Positions 8,420-47,533 of a DNA stretch of 64,000 nt are shown in pieces. Numbering within the stretch: position 1 is the stretch's first letter; every line of letters begins with the position of its first letter. This DNA is from the human T2T-CHM13v2.0 reference genome, Homo sapiens. The notes beneath the pieces were generated by a model, which saw only the letters and a list, made by a program, of their open reading frames with translations, made no database searches and was not told where the DNA came from. The stretch lies in NCBI RefSeq assembly GCF_009914755.1, contig NC_060928.1; one strand, written 5' to 3'. The position numbers and the translations under genes are program-made.

Positions 8420-8534
8420 CTTGGAGCAGATCTCGTGGAGACTTGTGGCAATGGCTTTTGCTGGTGTGTCACATCGAAATACATGACATTTCAAAATTCT
8501 TGTATCTTTATCTCTTGCTACATAAGCAAAATCC
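8420..8534 (-). CDS. APBB2: APBB2 coding exon, 115 nt, (R)[41 protein letters not shown]1
   Basis: Lies within ORF 8303..8542(-) and carries the FE65-family PTB1 motif DFAYVARD...CHVFRC. Acceptor TTTTGCTTGCACAG|G and donor AAG|GTAAGG. Phase 2 in, 0 out. Confidence 0.97.
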
Positions 8535-17928: not shown

Positions 17929-19634
17929 CCACGAGGGGTGTTTTTTAATAAATATTTGCACTCATATGAATTATACTAAGACTTGCTAAAATGTACCCAG
18001 CGACCCTTCCCTCCCAGCTTATCTTTCTATTGATGCTATTGCAAAGGGCAGGTCCCATCTGCAAATAAGGATAAGACAGCAGCAAACGGATTGGATCCAA
18101 ACATCGCACTTCTGGCACTTTAGGACAAAGGGCTTTCTCTCCTCTTTGTTTCACCTGTGCAGGGCCTAGCATGAGATCCAAAATAGAATTCAAAAGGTAA
18201 GCCCACATGAGAACACGGTGTAATTATAGGGTTCCTGGGCTATACAAAAATGTGGGTTGTTGACAGTCTGTACAAGGTCTGGAGGAAGAATGAGTCCTGT
18301 TTTCAAGACTGGACGCTTTTATTTTCTGACTGCACTTTGAAAAAATCTTGTTTTGAGAGTGGGAGGAATCAGGAAGCGAAAGTACGTAAGAAACTTCATC
18401 TTTCCAGATGGCCAATCCAGAATGACCCCCCGCAAAACACACACATGTAAGACTCTGGTTTTCTGTTCTTTTTAACCCAATGTCACATGTATCACATGCA
18501 GGCATCACTAATTTCACAAAGTTCAGGCTCTCGCTTGGTAAGCTTAACTTACTTTCTCCTTCTTTGCAAGCTTAAAAAGATGCTAAGTTTTTTAGCCTCC
18601 GAAAGGAGTATCCCAGGTACTCGTCACCTGGGTAAACACACAGGCTTAGCAGGGAATTCTTCACCAGGCACGCTCATGAGACACAGTGTGTAAATAGCAG
18701 ATCTGAAATTCTACCACCTGCAATTATCGAGGTGGCTTGGGCAAACTAGAATCTGTAGCCCTCTCTAGAACAGGGTCCTGGTGTTAATATTCAGAGCAAC
18801 TGCCTCCCAGCGAGGACACTCACATAAACAAGGAGAATAGGAACTAGCGAACACCTGAAAATGTCCTCCCCATTGACTCTGATGGGACTGGCTGTTATTT
18901 TACATGAAGGAGCTCACATCCACATGCACAGCCCTCATCCTCCAGAACTTTCCACCACCTGCCCCCGCCAGGGTCTCCTCAAAGTGATTTAAAAAGTCAG
19001 TGAAACCTGCAAATTCTCCTAATCACACTCTCTGGAAGACCAGCCCTGCAGGTGTCACCGCCCACTCTATGCTGTCTCTCCCTCTTAACCACTGGACTAT
19101 GACAGCAGCACATCACAGGGGAAAACAGCCACCAGCAGAGGGCAGTCACAACACCAGTGTGGCAGGAAATACCAGCTGAGGACTCATCACTTCCAGCTCC
19201 CAACCAGGCAGGGAGGTTACATGACACCAACTCCGACACAAAGAGGAGATCTGCCTTCGTGTCTCTCTGCTTTGCCCAGCAGGAACCACCATCATTCATT
19301 CAAGGAGAATTATCTCCAAATTCCCTTATTCCATCAAAAGTGGAGTTTTTATTAAGTGGTAGAGCTATGGAATCATGGAGCTTAAAGTCCCCAATCAATC
19401 AAACGGGCAGGCGGACATGCAGAGCATTGGAAAAACACAACTGAGGTCAAAATCTCTTGTTTCATAGGTATGTCTTTTCTGTGGTTCTATCCTTCTTGTG
19501 GTGGAGAGGGAGGACCATATATTTTGGCTAATAATTGACACTGAAACTGAATCAGTGCTTCTGGCTAGGCTAGTAGCCTAGTGCCAACCCTTACCAATCA
19601 AATTCTAGAGAATATGTAATATAAGCACTAATAT

Positions 19635-19944
<310 letters not shown>

Positions 19945-20333
19945 TGATATTAATTTTTCCAGAAGCATGAAAAGCCTCCTTCTACAACATGGCACATAAC
20001 CTATTTCCATCACATTCACTCCCTGCCACACTGATGAGATTTTTCTCAGTCGTTAGTGAGTGACCACATTGGTGTTAGACTTAATCACTCAGCCCATCAC
20101 CTTCCACAACCAGGGTCAAACACAGTAGAGAATGAGGAACGCAGACGCAATTCCAGACTCTGTTTTAAATGCTGGTGATAAGAGGCGAAACAAAACAAAA
20201 CAAAACAAAAGTTCTGCCTTTCAAAGACAAGGATGGTTGTGAGGATGGCAATGCGACATGAAGAAAGCAAGTGAGCTTTGCCAGACACGTTAAGACACCA
20301 CGAAGGGGGGAGAAGTGAAAATCGGCCGGTTAC

Positions 20334-20339
20334 CTCTCT
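20334..20339 (-). CDS. APBB2: 6-nt microexon AGAGAG; adds two residues (R-D becomes R-E-R-D) in PTB1
   Basis: Minus strand reads TGCTAAC (branch point), an AG-free pyrimidine tract, then GGATTCAG|AGAGAG|GTAACC. Same sequence and intron position as the known APBB1 neuronal microexon. Confidence 0.88.
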
Positions 20340-23300
20340 CTGAATCCGGGAAGGCGTGAGGGAACAGAGCAGAAACAACACGTTAGCATTCACACGGCAT
20401 CCCGCCAATAACACAGCCCCGTTAACAGCGAGTCTGAGCACTGACAGCTCATCTAATTTCCCAACTCTGCAGCAATTAATAGGCTTTCCGTGCTTATTTT
20501 AGGTCAACTGTATCACCCAGAAGTGTGTATTTTGAGCCACATTATGATGAAGCCAAGAGATGCCAGCTGAATTTACAGAGGCAACATATCAACTGGGGGA
20601 GGTAATCAAGCTTAAAATATCACAGTCAAATACAGGAAACTGTTTGCAGTAAACACTGGCAGAGGACGTGTCTTCATTTTCCAGTTCCACCTGCTCCCAA
20701 TAAAAAACATACAGAAACAACGGCATGGACATAGCCTTACCTGTTTTACCGACATTCCTGACACTCTATTAACAGAGCCACATCACTGGAATCCAGGCAC
20801 TTTTCCTGAGATGCATCCTTACAGGGCAACAGGGAGGGAGGGAGGCAGCACAGGTCAAGGGCGGGTGGGAAGTGGGAGAGACAGGAGATGACAGCTCAAT
20901 GGGGGAGAGATCAGAGACGTCCCAGGAAAGAGAGGAATGGAACGGAGAGAGGAACACAGTGCAAGTCTGGTTGGGGCCACACTCTTGGAGTTCCCTCCCT
21001 GAGCTACCCAGAGCTGTCCTGAGCTGCCTGGGACCCTAATGAAGTCACTTAATCCCCTGACCCATGGTGCTCACACCATTCCTTTCTGGCATTGTCACAG
21101 CCGATTTGCATGCACCGTACACAGAGCAACTAGACCAAAGAGCATGGAGCACTGGATAGATAACGAGGAGGAAAGGAAGAAACCCAATGTTTACAGAAAC
21201 CCGTTCTCTCGGGCACTCTATGGCCAGGGTCATGGAGCGGCCAGCAGGGCCCTGCAGGGATGGAGCTAAAATCATGGCATGAAACACCAAGTGCACCAGA
21301 CAGTGAACCACAAAGTCATTAAGTGGAAAGGAAGAGCTGCTCACCCTGAGGCGGAACAATGACCATGGCACACTAGTAAGTGGAGCAAAAACAAAGCCAA
21401 GCTGTAAATGCATGGTCTTATAAAAACAACAAAATGTTTGCATGTGTATTTTAATATATACACAGTAAAAAACTTGGAATATAATACCCGAACTGTCAAC
21501 TGTAATATGGAAAGAGGATTATGGAGGATTTTACTTTATCTCTTTGAAAATTATACAATAAGCACATTTGACTTTTGTGATAAAATATGCAAATATCTAC
21601 CTCAGTACTGAAGGAAAGCCATTGTGATCAGCATGCCCCAGGGCAGTTAACAGGACTAATATTAATGATTACAGTAACACCAGCCACCAATTACCCTTTA
21701 TTGAGCTCTGTTTGGCCCCTAACAGTAACTGGACAAGGTCAGTATTACTGTTCTGACAGATGAGGAAACAAGTTCAGAGAGGCTAAGACACTTGGCCAAG
21801 GTCACACAGCTACTACATGGGGAAGAGAGTTTGACAGTAGGCTGCAGGACTCGAATTCTAGTCTTAGATGCACCCATGATGGGTACTCCACCCTTCTACA
21901 CAGTCCTGCAGAGCCCCCTAATGGTTTGTCTCCTAAATGGCAAACACAGTCCCTAGGCACAGGTATTCAAGGTAGGGCCAAAGGGTTTGGCCAAGAACCT
22001 AGGGTTTTAGAGGAACAGGGAACATTCCTCTCTTTTGGTGAACTTTTGTAGGGAAAGAGGTGGCTAAAAATTCCTAAGAGGATCTTTGGGCTGAAGAGGC
22101 AGACACAGCTGTGCTCAAATCCAGATGGGTAGCCACATTCCTTCAAGTACACTGCTTACCTTCTCTTTATTTACCCAACATAGATTTCCAGGGCCCCTCT
22201 GTGTGCCAGGCACACTGTGTTACATGGTATGCCCCACAAAACCTGTTTCCTCATCATTGAAGAGGGGATAAGGACACCTGCTCATGCTCATAATGCTCAG
22301 GGGCATTATAAGCATGAAGTTAAATGGGACGACACGTGTATGGGAGTGCTGGGCATGTAACAAAGCTGCAATAACCTGCAACGTTAACAGCTATTATCAC
22401 TGTGTCATCCAATAGCTTCATCTCTTCGGCTGGGTTGTGCTGGGCAGCATTTGAGATGGACTGTCTCCCACGGAAGGACAGTCACCTGGGGGAGTGGCAG
22501 GGGCCCTCTGCTCAGGTTTGCTGGACCCCAGCTGATACAGGATGCTGGAGAGTCACCCCTTGGCTCAGGTCCCTCTGTGCTACTCGGTTCCACCTATCAA
22601 AGCCAGGCTTGGGTAGCAATTTACAAGATCAGCAAAGGACCCAGAGACCTGGATGCTGGTCCCAGTCTGAATCCACAGCTGGGTAACATTATGCAAGTCA
22701 CACAACCTCCCTAATTCTTGGGTTCCTAATCTCAGAATGGATGTGCTAGGAACTTCTTAGTGCTCAGATTTTTATCAGAAAAGGATATGTTAGTGCTTTG
22801 ACTTGCTTTTAATTACACCAAATGTTTTCAATTTCTTATTTTTAATAAAAAGCCTATCTGTAGTGTGTGACAAAAACTTTAAAAATCTAACAATCTGAGA
22901 ATACAACCTGTTTCTTTTGTGTATAATTATTATTGTAGTCTTGGATATTTTAAATCAGATCCACTGCTAGTGATTCACTTAAAAACATACCATCAAGATG
23001 TAGCTACTGTGTTTTTCCCTGAAAGCAGACTTGGAAAAAATGCTACTGCAAACTTTTAACACAGTTAATTCATTTGGAGTTAATAAACACTGCTTGATTT
23101 AAGTATCAAAGTGAAAACCAGCCATAAATAAGACACCGCAGAGTGATATTTGAAATGTCATTCAGAAACCCAGAAGAGTCACAGACAGTGCCAGCAGCTC
23201 CACCAATTCAGCACCTTGTAAATTTGCTGGGAAGAAAACATCAGTCCAAAGCTGGGCTTCTGCACAAGACAAACCAGTCTGAGAGTGGAGAAGGCTAAAT

Positions 23301-33695: not shown

Positions 33696-34729
33696 AAGCA
33701 AAACGGAAAGTAGGGTTCTTACTGAGCTACAAACCATGACACCTTCTTTGATAATACTGGCTGATGCTTTATGGAAAGTCTTTCCCCTCTTAAGCATTTC
33801 ATTCACACTCCCTTTTACTTATAACTTTTACAAAATTACAGACCACATTTACAAACACATTCTGCTTCTAACTTCTTAGGAAAGGCCTCAGGACACTTAA
33901 TAATTCCTTTCTGAACTCAACTAACTAAAAGGCAGCAGCAAGGATCTGAACTTTAGAGAGAATCTTACAAACTACTCTTGTGTAAGAGCTCGGCTGGAGG
34001 AAGGGCCAACTGCTCAATGGCCTAAGAAAACCTAAAAGAGAACAGCATGAGGAAAGCAGGCAGAACCCCCATTCATGATACAAGTCAAAGCCAGGCTGCA
34101 GCTGCAGTTATAAAAAGAAAGAAAAAGACTAATGGGATTGCCCCCTCCTTCCGCCTTCTCCCACCCAAGGCAGTAATGAAGATTCACAGCTACACATTAA
34201 TTAGGAATCCATAGACGTGCCTGGTTACAATATTGGTATAGGGAAACAGATAATAGAAAAGGCACAGATTCCCCCACAAGCTAATAGAGTGTTGTAAGCA
34301 ATATTTAAATCTTCACGCCTTTCTTTTCAAAAACACTACTTCTTTCTCAATGCCAAGAGCTGGCTGCGTTTCTACATTTGGGGAATTTGAGATATTTTCT
34401 CGCATGGAAGTCACACCAATATCCTAAATCGTGTAACTAAAATCATTTGGAAATGCACAGTTTTTCTACACGAAAGGATATTGCTTTTAATCCAAATACT
34501 GGATTACCAAAACCCTGAAATATCTTTCAGTCCTAATGTAGACAGGAAGACAGAAATGTGGCCTCACCAGGGGGCACGTGAGGCGAAGGCAGTCACTGCC
34601 TCAATCATAGAACGCTGTCCACGGCAGAAATGCCCCGTGCAGACCCCATCAATGAATAGCCCACCCCGAACAGTCCTGCTGCACTGGCGAATTGGGGGTC
34701 CAAGGACGCCTCCCCCCCATTTCATACAA

Positions 34730-35290
34730 GCCTCACTCCTTCTTCCCACCGGCGGGGCAGAAAGCCCCCTCTTCAGCCCTTCCAGCCGTCCAGGACCAGG
34801 CAACTCGCTAAGCGCTGACTCGGGGAAGGGAGGGCGCAGCCTTTGTCCCGCAGGTCTCCCGCGCCCGCCTCGCTGTCCCCGCGAGCGAGCTTGGGCTCGA
34901 CCCCCGTTCCCCCTGAACGCACCTGCAAACAAAGGAGAGCCGTTCCTTCGCCAACTTCCTCACCTTTGCCTCCCGGTCCTTCCGAAGTCGGGCGGGGATG
35001 CCGCCCCAGGTGCTACGACAAGCCCCAGGGTGCCGGCACCAGCCAGCGGTGCCGTCGCTCAAGCAGCCGCGCGGACTGCCCCGGGCTCAAGTTGAAGAGA
35101 GCGGCGCCCGCGCCTCCCTGCGCCCTCCCTGCCCCGCCCGCCGCGGCCGCCCATTGGCTGCTGGGGAGGCGCGTGGCCCCGCCCCACCCGGCCGCACTCC
35201 CGTGAAGTGCTCCCGCTAGGTGCTCCCGCCAGATGCTCCAGCTGCTAGGGGACTGGCTCAGGGCCGGCAAGGAGGATCCCCCACCCCAAC
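34730..35290 (-). promoter_or_regulatory. APBB2: Intragenic CpG island and probable internal APBB2 promoter with a non-coding first exon
   Basis: Only strongly CpG/GC-rich non-Alu block in the window. GC boxes at 35131-35139 and 35175-35185, CCAAT box (minus CAGCCAATGG) at 35151-35160, and downstream donors AAG|GTGAGG (34964/34963) and CAG|GTGCGT (34923/34922). Confidence 0.8.
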
Positions 35291-46265: not shown

Positions 46266-46792
46266 TTTACTGGACCATAGATTCTGCTTTCTTCTCTCAT
46301 ATAGAAAATTTTTTGAGGAAAAGAGGGGAAACTGCATCATTGAAGCGAGCTGTATAATTTTTCTTTAGGAACACAATGATCCAGTAACCAATCTGAACCA
46401 TTAGCAATCTCAGCTTCAGAATTTCAGGAATCCATGACATGTGAAATGTGTCAGGATTAGCCAGAAGTAAAGGCTGGCAACTCAGTCTACTTTGATGGTT
46501 TCTGATTGCACTGATGATAAATTAACTGAACTCATGACTTATTAATTGAATTGAAAATGTATATTTAAAGACTCCTGATACAGTCAGAAGACTAAATCAG
46601 TAATTCCAAACTCTGAATCATCTTAGAAGTCAAAGAACTTTCCACAAAGGAACTAAATTACTTACCTCAAGCAAAATTCCTTTTTATTTAAAGAGTTGAG
46701 ATTGGACCAAATTGGTCCTTTTAACCACCAAAGAGCCATTTTATTATTTTTGCCATCAAGGACCTCTTATTTTAATAACTTTTTTCTTTCAC

Positions 46793-47533
<741 letters not shown>

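What the first reader, a model, noticed from the sequence alone, without database searches (positions are those of the whole stretch)
20334..20390. Hidden 6-nt microexon AGAGAG in APBB2 PTB1
Seen in the sequence: branch point TGCTAAC (20388-20382), an AG-free pyrimidine tract with a UGC about 30 nt upstream, then CAG|AGAGAG|GTAACC. It sits in a locally CpG-retaining, repeat-free patch 11.8 kb upstream of the DFAYVARD exon. The intron is phase 2, so inclusion keeps the frame and inserts E-R before DFAYVARD. Established: paralog APBB1/FE65 has a neuron-specific AGAGAG exon at this PTB1 position that modulates partner binding (KAT5/Tip60), and neural microexons are generally SRRM4/SRRM3-driven. 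Inference: this is the APBB2 counterpart. It is probably in microexon catalogues but is easily missed by standard annotation and is invisible to ORF finding.
Basis: partly seen in the sequence, partly recalled or inferred. Interest (0 to 1): 0.8.

Follow-up and report, generated by a model that had tools for sequence, protein, structure and literature searches.

The report
Known 6-nt neural microexon of APBB2
The six-base exon AGAGAG is real and adds two amino acids (Glu-Arg) to the first PTB domain of APBB2, but it is already annotated, published and shown to be switched on by the splicing factor SRRM4, so it is not a discovery.

Summary
On the minus strand: TGCTAAC at 20388-20382, a 92-nt AG-free zone, UGC at -32, then CAG|AGAGAG(20339-20334)|GTAACC.

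I found the upstream constitutive exon outside the window. It ends ...GGC CG|gt. Skipping therefore gives CGG (Arg), and inclusion gives CGA-GAG-AGG (Arg-Glu-Arg). The frame is kept and the net gain is Glu-Arg before DFAYVARD.

In the same genome APBB1 carries an identical AGAGAG exon in the homologous phase-2 intron. APBB3 has a candidate TGACAG there.

The exon is not hidden:
- RefSeq lists it in other APBB2 transcripts (hub table).
- Li et al. 2015 describe 6-nt PTB1 micro-exons in all three APBB genes, spliced both ways from fish to mammals.
- Head et al. 2021, S4 Data, give a 6-nt APBB2 exon with PSI 0 under GFP and 91.7 under SRRM4 in HEK293.
- Ciampi et al. 2022 list the zebrafish apbb2b 6-nt exon as reduced in srrm3 mutants.

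Only the effect of Glu-Arg on APBB2 itself remains untested. Verdict: real, ordinary, already known; low interest.

The parts
20334..20339 (-). 6-nt cassette microexon AGAGAG of APBB2. It adds Glu-Arg to PTB1: Arg alone becomes Arg-Glu-Arg.
   Evidence: Sequence. RefSeq exon of other transcripts (hub table). Frame worked out. 6-nt APBB2 VastDB event.
20340..20342 (-). 3' splice site CAG
20343..20381 (-). AG-free, pyrimidine-rich stretch between branch point and 3' splice site (75% pyrimidine from -35 to -4), with UGC at 20371-20369 (-32). This is the likely SRRM4/SRRM3 enhancer region.
   Evidence: That UGC/UC-rich elements act as the SRRM4 site is taken from the literature and was not tested for this exon.
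20382..20388 (-). Branch-point consensus TGCTAAC, branch A at 20383 (-44).
   Evidence: The distance fits the 45-nt median predicted for human neural microexons. Actual use as a branch point is not shown.
20421..20427 (-). Second, distal branch-like motif TGTTAAC (A at 20422, -83), inside the same 92-nt AG-free zone.
   Evidence: Use not shown.
20328..20333 (-). 5' splice site GTAACC after exon end GAG. It matches 6 of 9 positions of CAG|GTAAGT and lacks G at +5.
   Evidence: The consensus is recalled.
20315..20326 (-). Downstream intronic 12-mer GCCGATTTTCAC (+8 to +19). 10 of 12 bases are shared, in register, with the APBB1 microexon intron. Possible splicing enhancer.
   Evidence: Best anchored 12-nt window P about 0.002 against random pairs; noticed post hoc.
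20251..20450 (.). CpG-retaining, single-copy patch around the microexon.
   Evidence: 12 CpG, o/e 0.85 against 0.28. (one genomic match, itself).
8420..8534 (-). Downstream constitutive PTB1 exon. It starts G|GAT TTT and encodes [38 protein letters not shown].
   Evidence: Matches the FE65 PTB1 structure 3d8d at E 5e-17.

Best explanation
Window 20334-20339 (minus strand) is the known alternative 6-nt microexon of APBB2 (FE65L1).

It lies in a roughly 59.8-kb phase-2 intron between two exons. The upstream exon ends ...RVWGVGRDNG + CG, outside the window at about window 68288-68415. The downstream exon begins G + DFAYVARD at 8534.

When the microexon is skipped, the split codon is CGG (Arg). 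When it is included, the reading is CGA GAG AGG (Arg-Glu-Arg). Two charged residues are thus added to a loop of the first PTB domain and the frame is unchanged.

Inclusion is driven by the eMIC-domain splicing activators SRRM4 and SRRM3. They most likely act through the UGC-containing, AG-free pyrimidine stretch between the distant branch point (-44) and the 3' splice site. This compensates for an exon too short for ordinary exon definition and for a middling 5' splice site.

The exon is one of three paralogous PTB1 microexons (APBB1, APBB2, APBB3) that date from before the vertebrate gene duplications.

Shown here or in published tables: the sequence anatomy, the frame, the paralogy, the response to SRRM4, the dependence on Srrm3 in zebrafish, and splicing in both forms across vertebrates.

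Inferred: which nucleotides SRRM4 uses here, and that Glu-Arg tunes partner binding of APBB2 PTB1 as it does for APBB1 with KAT5/Tip60.
For: Sequence anatomy.

Frame: the upstream exon was found by searching the genome with the APBB1 exon translation. It ends GGC CG|gtgagt. The downstream exon starts G GAT TTT.

Paralogy:
- APBB1 on contig 11 has ...tgtgctgctggacccag|AGAGAG|gtacta about 290 nt upstream of its DFAYVARD exon, and its upstream exon ends GGA AG|gt.
- APBB3 has a candidate ...cttccggaacag|TGACAG|gtgagt about 140 nt upstream of its DFAFVASD exon, and its upstream exon ends CG|gt.

Domain: the exon matches the FE65 PTB1 structures 3d8d/3d8e/3d8f at E 5e-17. In that chain, three residues separate the two exon-encoded segments (chain positions 95 and 99), which is the spacing of the microexon-included form.

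Annotation: RefSeq lists exon 20334-20339 in other APBB2 transcripts (hub table).

Papers:
- Li et al. 2015, PMC4317164, passages read: all three APBB genes have 6-nt micro-exons in PTB1 at paralogous positions, with both isoforms in mammals, chicken and fish.
- Head et al. 2021, PMC7935315, S4 Data row: APBB2 HsaEX0005072, 6 nt, PSI 0 with GFP and 91.72 with SRRM4 in HEK293.
- Ciampi et al. 2022, PMC9303857, supplement row: zebrafish apbb2b 6-nt exon, dPSI -29.2 in srrm3-mutant eyes at 5 dpf.
- Randazza et al. preprint, PMC12871342: an APBB2 neural microexon rises sharply between chick brain stages HH15 and HH27. The median predicted branch-point distance for human neural microexons is 45 nt.
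- APBB1 precedent: a 6-bp mini-exon gives E462/R463 in PTB1, the including form is neuronal, and inclusion enhances Kat5/Tip60 binding (review passages).
Against: - The VastDB coordinates (chr4:40842370-40842375) belong to another assembly and I could not lift them over. That the event is this exon rests on gene, length and the single 6-nt PTB1 exon described in print.
- The passages I saw in the Randazza preprint do not state the length of their APBB2 microexon.
- Inclusion is not strictly neuronal. Mean PSI was 16.1 in normal breast and 10.3 in normal lung (5.0 and 3.4 in tumours) in TCGA.
- The nearest UGC here is at -32, farther than in APBB1 (-12, -15) or APBB3 (-14, -24). The exact SRRM4 site is therefore unproven.
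- No functional test of Glu-Arg in APBB2 was found. Randazza Table 1 lists the microexon's function as 'unknown'.
Confidence: 0.93

Rival explanations
1. The exon is controlled mainly by RBFOX activation and PTBP1 repression, the regulators stressed by Li et al. 2015 for brain micro-exons, and not by SRRM4/SRRM3.
For: Li et al. 2015 present the APBB micro-exons in a paper whose general model is RBFOX/PTBP1 control. The upstream tract is pyrimidine-rich.
Against: There is no GCAUG within 300 nt on either side of the APBB2 exon. There is no UCUU or CUCUCU within 100 nt upstream. SRRM4 alone moves PSI from 0 to 91.7 in HEK293. The APBB2 gene name was not found in the 5 of 6 Li et al. supplementary files that could be searched.
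Confidence: 0.08
2. The match is a chance splice-like decoy, or it is spliced only as low-level noise with no selected function.
For: AG|N6|GT is common: 275 sites on the gene strand in this window. A loose consensus is not rare by chance. Human average PSI is low, 14.8% in Randazza Table 1.
Against: It is annotated by RefSeq. It is identical to the APBB1 exon in the homologous phase-2 intron. A 6-nt exon is present and regulated in zebrafish apbb2b. Both isoforms are reported from fish to mammals. The response to SRRM4 is switch-like. The flanks retain CpG.
Confidence: 0.02
3. The CpG-retaining, single-copy patch is conserved mainly as a transcriptional enhancer or other DNA-level element, and the microexon merely sits inside it.
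For: CpG o/e is 0.85 against 0.28. RefSeq functional enhancers lie 0.9-1.8 kb away at 18553-19415 (hub table).
Against: No RefSeq functional element overlaps 20200-20520 (hub table). Strong conservation of intron flanks is a general trait of neural microexons (abstract and sections of PMC12871342). The two readings do not exclude each other.
Confidence: 0.1

Closest known systems
APBB1/FE65 mini-exon 9 (6 nt; E462-R463 in PTB1; the including form is neuronal)
   Same: The exon sequence is identical, AGAGAG. The intron is the homologous phase-2 intron between the ...VWGVGRDxG exon and the DFAYVARD exon. The outcome is the same, Arg to Arg-Glu-Arg. Both have a branch-like CTAAC about 40-44 nt upstream and UGC in the tract. 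Both are induced by SRRM4 in HEK293.
   Different: The APBB2 introns are huge, about 48 kb upstream and 11.8 kb downstream, against a few hundred nt in APBB1. The split codon is CG|N, not AG|N. The nearest UGC is at -32 instead of -12/-15. There is no CUCUCU upstream and no GCAUG nearby. The effect on Kat5/Tip60 binding is reported for APBB1 only.
APBB3/FE65L2 6-nt PTB1 microexon
   Same: The intron position and phase are the same. The upstream exon ends CG| as in APBB2. An acidic residue plus Arg is inserted. Li et al. 2015 report a 6-nt exon in APBB3.
   Different: The candidate exon is TGACAG (Asp-Arg) with a strong GTGAGT donor. I identified it from sequence only and did not check it against annotation.
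SRRM4/SRRM3 (eMIC)-dependent neural microexon programme (VastDB 'MIC' events)
   Same: It is 3-27 nt long, frame-preserving and lies within a protein-interaction domain. The branch-point to 3' splice-site distance is extended and contains UGC. It is activated by SRRM4, depends on Srrm3 in fish and is conserved across vertebrates.
   Different: Nothing categorical. The UGC is rather distal, and inclusion in normal breast and lung is measurable.

Membership tests
APBB-family PTB1 6-nt microexon (paralogy group) | Lies in the phase-2 intron between the exon ending ...VWGVG(R/S)xxG and the exon starting DFA(Y/F)VA | tested here: met
   Upstream exons of all three genes were found in the genome and end with two bases of an Arg codon. 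The downstream exons start with G plus GAT/GAC.
APBB-family PTB1 6-nt microexon (paralogy group) | 6 nt, flanked by AG and GT, inserting an acidic residue and Arg without a frame change | tested here: met
   CAG|AGAGAG|GT, giving CGA GAG AGG = R-E-R. Identical to the APBB1 exon.
APBB-family PTB1 6-nt microexon (paralogy group) | Encoded segment belongs to PTB1, not PTB2 | tested here: met
   The adjacent exon matches FE65 PTB1 structure 3d8d at E 5e-17. It matches the APBB2 chains 1wgu/2roz only at E 0.97.
APBB-family PTB1 6-nt microexon (paralogy group) | Actually spliced into mRNA, in both forms | tested here: met
   Look-up only, no reads analysed here. RefSeq alternative transcripts (hub table). 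Li et al. 2015 passages. PSI values in Head et al. 2021 tables.
SRRM4/SRRM3-dependent neural microexon | Length 3-27 nt and a multiple of 3 | tested here: met
   6 nt.
SRRM4/SRRM3-dependent neural microexon | UGC-containing UC-rich element between an extended branch point and the 3' splice site | tested here: met
   UGC at -32, branch A at -44, 92-nt AG-free zone, 75% pyrimidine. Binding itself was not tested.
SRRM4/SRRM3-dependent neural microexon | Inclusion rises on SRRM4 expression, or falls on SRRM3/4 loss | tested here: met
   Published tables looked up. PSI 0 to 91.72 in HEK293. Zebrafish apbb2b dPSI -29.2 in srrm3 mutants. Equating the assembly coordinates with this exon is inferred.
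SRRM4/SRRM3-dependent neural microexon | Neural-enriched inclusion | tested here: inconclusive
   Randazza et al. class an APBB2 microexon as neural, and it rises in chick brain, but I did not see its length. Normal breast and lung show PSI 16 and 10. I analysed no tissue RNA-seq.
SRRM4/SRRM3-dependent neural microexon | Conservation of exon and flanks across vertebrates | tested here: inconclusive
   No vertebrate genome alignment is available here. Indirect support: identity with the paralog exon, the zebrafish 6-nt apbb2b exon, cDNA evidence in Li et al., and CpG retention.

The most novel reading that the evidence does not exclude
The untested part is what Glu-Arg does in APBB2 itself. The most novel reading still open has two parts.

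First, the insertion may switch the partner set of APBB2 PTB1 in neurons in a way that differs from APBB1, rather than merely strengthening Kat5/Tip60 binding.

Second, recognition of this exon across a 48-kb upstream intron may rely on an extra intronic element shared with APBB1. This is GCCNAUUUUC at +8 to +17, 10 of 12 bases in register over +8 to +19. It would act in addition to the rather distal UGC.
Probability: 0.25. Interest if true: 0.35.

Novelty: already known. Interest (0 to 1): 0.12.

Why it matters
The exon is a good textbook case: six bases that ORF finding cannot see, kept for more than 400 million years in three paralogs, altering a protein-interaction domain of an APP-binding adaptor. 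But it adds nothing new. The only open question of some value is the biochemical effect of Glu-Arg on APBB2 PTB1. One 2026 preprint still lists that function as unknown.

Tried and rejected
- Assembly offset check. I fetched contig 4:40908000-40910000 and looked for the 63-nt APBB2 exon HsaEX0005074, which is listed in the same table. I examined 5 AG|N63|GT candidates and none looked coding. The check is inconclusive and was dropped.
- RNA structure. The 156 nt around the exon fold no better than shuffles: z +0.28, and 117 of 200 shuffles fold at least as well. There is no special structure, which agrees with the 'accessible' picture but is not evidence for it.
- Rfam on 19500-21200. The 6 matches listed (E up to 1) were all below gathering score. 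They were SRP, miRNA and sRNA-family matches, all within 19570-19944 in and beside an Alu; none lay at the microexon.
- ORFs of 40 aa or more overlapping 20100-20600. One was found, 47 aa at 20589-20732, unrelated.
- Supplement searches that found no Apbb2 row: Li 2015 (5 files searched, 1 not), Quesnel-Vallieres 2015 (6 searched, 1 not), MicroExonator 2021 (8 files).
- The main text of the zebrafish microexon-deletion paper PMC12626420 holds no 'apbb'.
- Full-text search for 'HsaEX0005072': 0 papers.
- Irimia et al. 2014 and Guenette et al. 1996 could not be read; the ids I recalled are not held. What I say about Kat5 comes from review passages.
- The supplement of the Randazza preprint could not be read. 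It may state the exon length.
- No structure prediction of APBB2 PTB1 with and without Glu-Arg was attempted, because the domain spans several exons and would need a joined sequence.
Full report
**Observation**

On the minus strand the window reads ...aaTGCTAACgtgttgtttcTGCtctgttccctcacgccttcccggattCAG|AGAGAG|GTAACCggccgattttcac.... The coordinates are:

| Feature | Window position | Position relative to exon base 1 |
|---|---|---|
| TGCTAAC | 20388-20382 | branch A at 20383 = -44 |
| UGC | 20371-20369 | -32 |
| 3' splice-site AG | 20341-20340 | |
| Exon AGAGAG | 20339-20334 | |
| GTAACC | 20333-20328 | |

- The previous AG is at 20435-20434, so the AG-free zone is 92 nt. It also holds a second branch-like TGTTAAC at 20427-20421.
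- The exact 13-mer around the exon is unique in the window. The expected count is 0.01, and 1 of 100 shuffles matched.
- A looser consensus with one mismatch is not improbable. The expected count is 0.39, and 29 of 100 shuffles matched.
- The gene strand between 8535 and 64000 holds 275 AG|N6|GT sites, 252 of them without an in-frame stop. Only this one reaches its own values of AG-free zone, pyrimidine content, donor match and branch motif. Those thresholds were set from the site itself.
- Sequence signals alone would therefore be suggestive, not decisive. Paralogy and outside data decide the matter.

**Frame**

- The downstream exon (8534-8420) starts G|GAT TTT GCT and encodes [38 protein letters not shown].
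- The upstream constitutive exon is not in the window. I found it by translating the homologous APBB1 exon from the same genome and searching the genome with it.
- It lies at contig 4:40864288-40864415, about window 68288-68415. It encodes GKDMYLILENDMLSLVDPMDRSVLHSQPIVSIRVWGVGRDNG and ends GGC CG|gtgagt.
- Skipping gives CG|G = Arg. Inclusion gives CG|A GAG AG|G = Arg-Glu-Arg.
- The intron is phase 2 and the frame is kept.
- The introns on either side of the microexon are about 47.9 kb and 11.8 kb.

**Paralogs in the same genome**

The DFAYVARD exon translation finds three places in the genome: APBB2 itself, contig 11 (84% identity, APBB1) and contig 5 (70% identity, APBB3).

- In APBB1, about 290 nt upstream of that exon, the sequence is ...ctctaactctgttatttgcctctcttgtgctgctggacccag|AGAGAG|gtactatgcc.
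- The APBB1 upstream exon ends GGA AG|gt, again giving Arg or Arg-Glu-Arg.
- In APBB3 the best candidate is ...ttctgtgctcccacatgcttccggaacag|TGACAG|gtgagt, about 140 nt upstream of DFAFVASD. Its upstream exon ends CG|gt, giving Arg-Asp-Arg. This one is my reading of the sequence only.
- Anchored at the exon, the APBB1 and APBB2 flanks share 18 of 48 bases upstream and 19 of 48 downstream. The background mean is 11.9, with P 0.04 and 0.02.
- The same comparison shows a 12-mer at +8 to +19 with 10 of 12 identical bases (P about 0.002, noticed post hoc).

**Domain**

- The downstream exon matches the solved FE65 PTB1 domain (3d8d, 3d8e, 3d8f) at E 5e-17, chain residues 99-136.
- The APBB1 upstream exon matches chain residues 54-95.
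- Three residues lie between the two segments. This is the spacing of the microexon-included form, so the paralog's solved structure appears to contain the inserted residues.
- The APBB2 chains in the PDB (1wgu, 2roz) match the exon only at E 0.97. They therefore do not contain PTB1.

**Surroundings**

- The 200 nt around the exon hold 12 CpG, observed/expected 0.85. The window as a whole has 0.28. Only 0.9% of 200-nt windows have as many CpG, and most of those are in the CpG island at about 34.7-35.2 kb.
- The stretch 20200-20520 matched only itself in the 3.1-Gb assembly.
- An Alu lies just below, at about 19659-19942.
- Nothing else was found on either strand: no Rfam match at the site, no relevant ORF and no unusual RNA fold, z +0.28.

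**What is already known**

- The hub's RefSeq table lists exon 20334-20339 among the exons of other APBB2 transcripts. The selected transcript NM_004307.2 skips it.
- Li et al. 2015 (PMC4317164, passages read) state that APBB1, APBB2 and APBB3 all possess 6-nt micro-exons. These encode two residues in the first PTB domain, at paralogous positions. Both isoforms occur in mammals, chicken and fishes.
- Head et al. 2021 (PMC7935315) S4 Data is the list of 314 exons with dPSI of 25 or more on SRRM4 over-expression in HEK293. It has the row APBB2, HsaEX0005072, chr4:40842370-40842375, 6 nt, PSI 0 (GFP) and 91.72 (SRRM4). An APBB1 row goes from 0.38 to 98.64.
- Their TCGA table gives PSI 16.1 against 5.0 (breast, normal against tumour) and 10.3 against 3.4 (lung).
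- Ciampi et al. 2022 (PMC9303857, supplement row) list the zebrafish apbb2b 6-nt exon DreEX0013859 among microexons reduced in srrm3-mutant eyes (78.0 to 48.8 at 5 dpf), together with apbb1.
- Randazza et al. (preprint PMC12871342) include an APBB2 microexon among conserved neural microexons that rise sharply in chick brain between HH15 and HH27. They list its function as unknown. They report a median predicted branch-point distance of 45 nt for human neural microexons. The 44 nt seen here fits that value. I did not see the length of their APBB2 exon, and their supplement could not be read.
- For APBB1, review passages say the 6-bp mini-exon gives E462/R463 in PTB1. They say the including form is neuronal and that inclusion enhances binding to Kat5/Tip60.
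- I could not read Irimia et al. 2014 itself.

**Mechanism**

- The best-supported account is a vertebrate-wide, SRRM4/SRRM3-activated cassette microexon.
- Its short length and middling donor are offset by an extended, AG-free, UGC-bearing region between branch point and acceptor. The donor is GAG|GTAACC, matching 6 of 9 positions of a recalled consensus.
- A mainly RBFOX/PTBP1 mechanism is less likely. There is no GCAUG within 300 nt on either side, and no UCUU or CUCUCU within 100 nt upstream. SRRM4 alone suffices in HEK293.
- The protein consequence is two charged residues in a PTB1 loop. This is shown at the sequence level.
- That the insertion tunes partner binding of APBB2 is inferred from APBB1 and is untested.

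**Caveats**

- The link between the VastDB event and window 20334-20339 rests on gene, length and the single 6-nt PTB1 exon described in print. I had no liftover, and my attempt to calibrate the offset with another exon failed.
- Vertebrate conservation of the flanks was not measured here.
- Neural specificity is taken from others' classifications, and non-neural normal tissues show some inclusion.

**Verdict**

The finding is already known. Interest is low.

Noticed in passing
window 8420-8534; PDB chains 1wgu/2roz and 3d8d: Li et al. 2015 say they mapped the two microexon residues onto PDB 2ROZ and inferred contact with the APP tail. The PTB1 exon next to the microexon matches 2roz/1wgu only at E 0.97, but matches FE65 PTB1 (3d8d) at 5e-17. 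2ROZ is therefore not the domain that carries the microexon, and that structural inference rests on a different PTB domain.
   Followed up: partly
PDB 3d8d/3d8e/3d8f (FE65 PTB1), chain positions 95-99: Three residues separate the segments encoded by the two flanking exons. This is the spacing of the microexon-included form, so a solved structure that includes the paralogous Glu-Arg seems to exist already.
   Followed up: partly
L003:1755-1760 (-), contig 5 (APBB3): Candidate APBB3 6-nt microexon TGACAG, with UGC at -24 and -14 and a strong GTGAGT donor. It would give Arg-Asp-Arg. Read from sequence only.
   Followed up: partly
window 20315-20326 (-) and L002 (APBB1), intron +8 to +19: The 12-mer GCCGATTTTCAC in APBB2 and GCCTATTTTCCC in APBB1 are in register downstream of the two AGAGAG exons, 10 of 12 identical (P about 0.002, post hoc). 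APBB3 has no counterpart. Possible shared intronic enhancer.
   Followed up: partly
window about 34650-35250: This is the strongest CpG island of the window: up to 25 CpG per 200 nt, GC 0.74-0.78. It coincides with exons of other APBB2 transcripts (34923-35093, 34964-35130) and a RefSeq 'silencer' (hub table). It is probably an internal alternative promoter.
   Followed up: no
Head et al. 2021 tables; L002:1904-1909: The VastDB event for APBB1 (HsaEX0005055) is listed as 4 nt, while the genome shows a 6-nt AGAGAG between AG and GT. Another paper lists 6 nt. This is probably an annotation quirk caused by the AG repeats at the junctions.
   Followed up: no
PMC8627023 Table 3: That paper lists the literature-reported APBB2 microexon as 21 nt, at an hg19 position about 20 kb from the 6-nt exon, while giving 6 nt for APBB1 and APBB3. 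No 21-nt exon is in the hub's table for this window. Unexplained.
   Followed up: no
window 19659-19942 (-): Two sub-threshold Metazoa_SRP matches and mir-1268-like matches. This is an Alu element about 400 nt from the microexon, inside the masked stretch 19626-19962.
   Followed up: no
reference lists seen: Penna et al. 2013 report an snRNA-like transcript that perturbs APBB2 alternative splicing. The window also holds an annotated U13 snoRNA-like gene at 46787-46893 (-) in the same intron (hub table). I did not examine whether the two are related.
   Followed up: no
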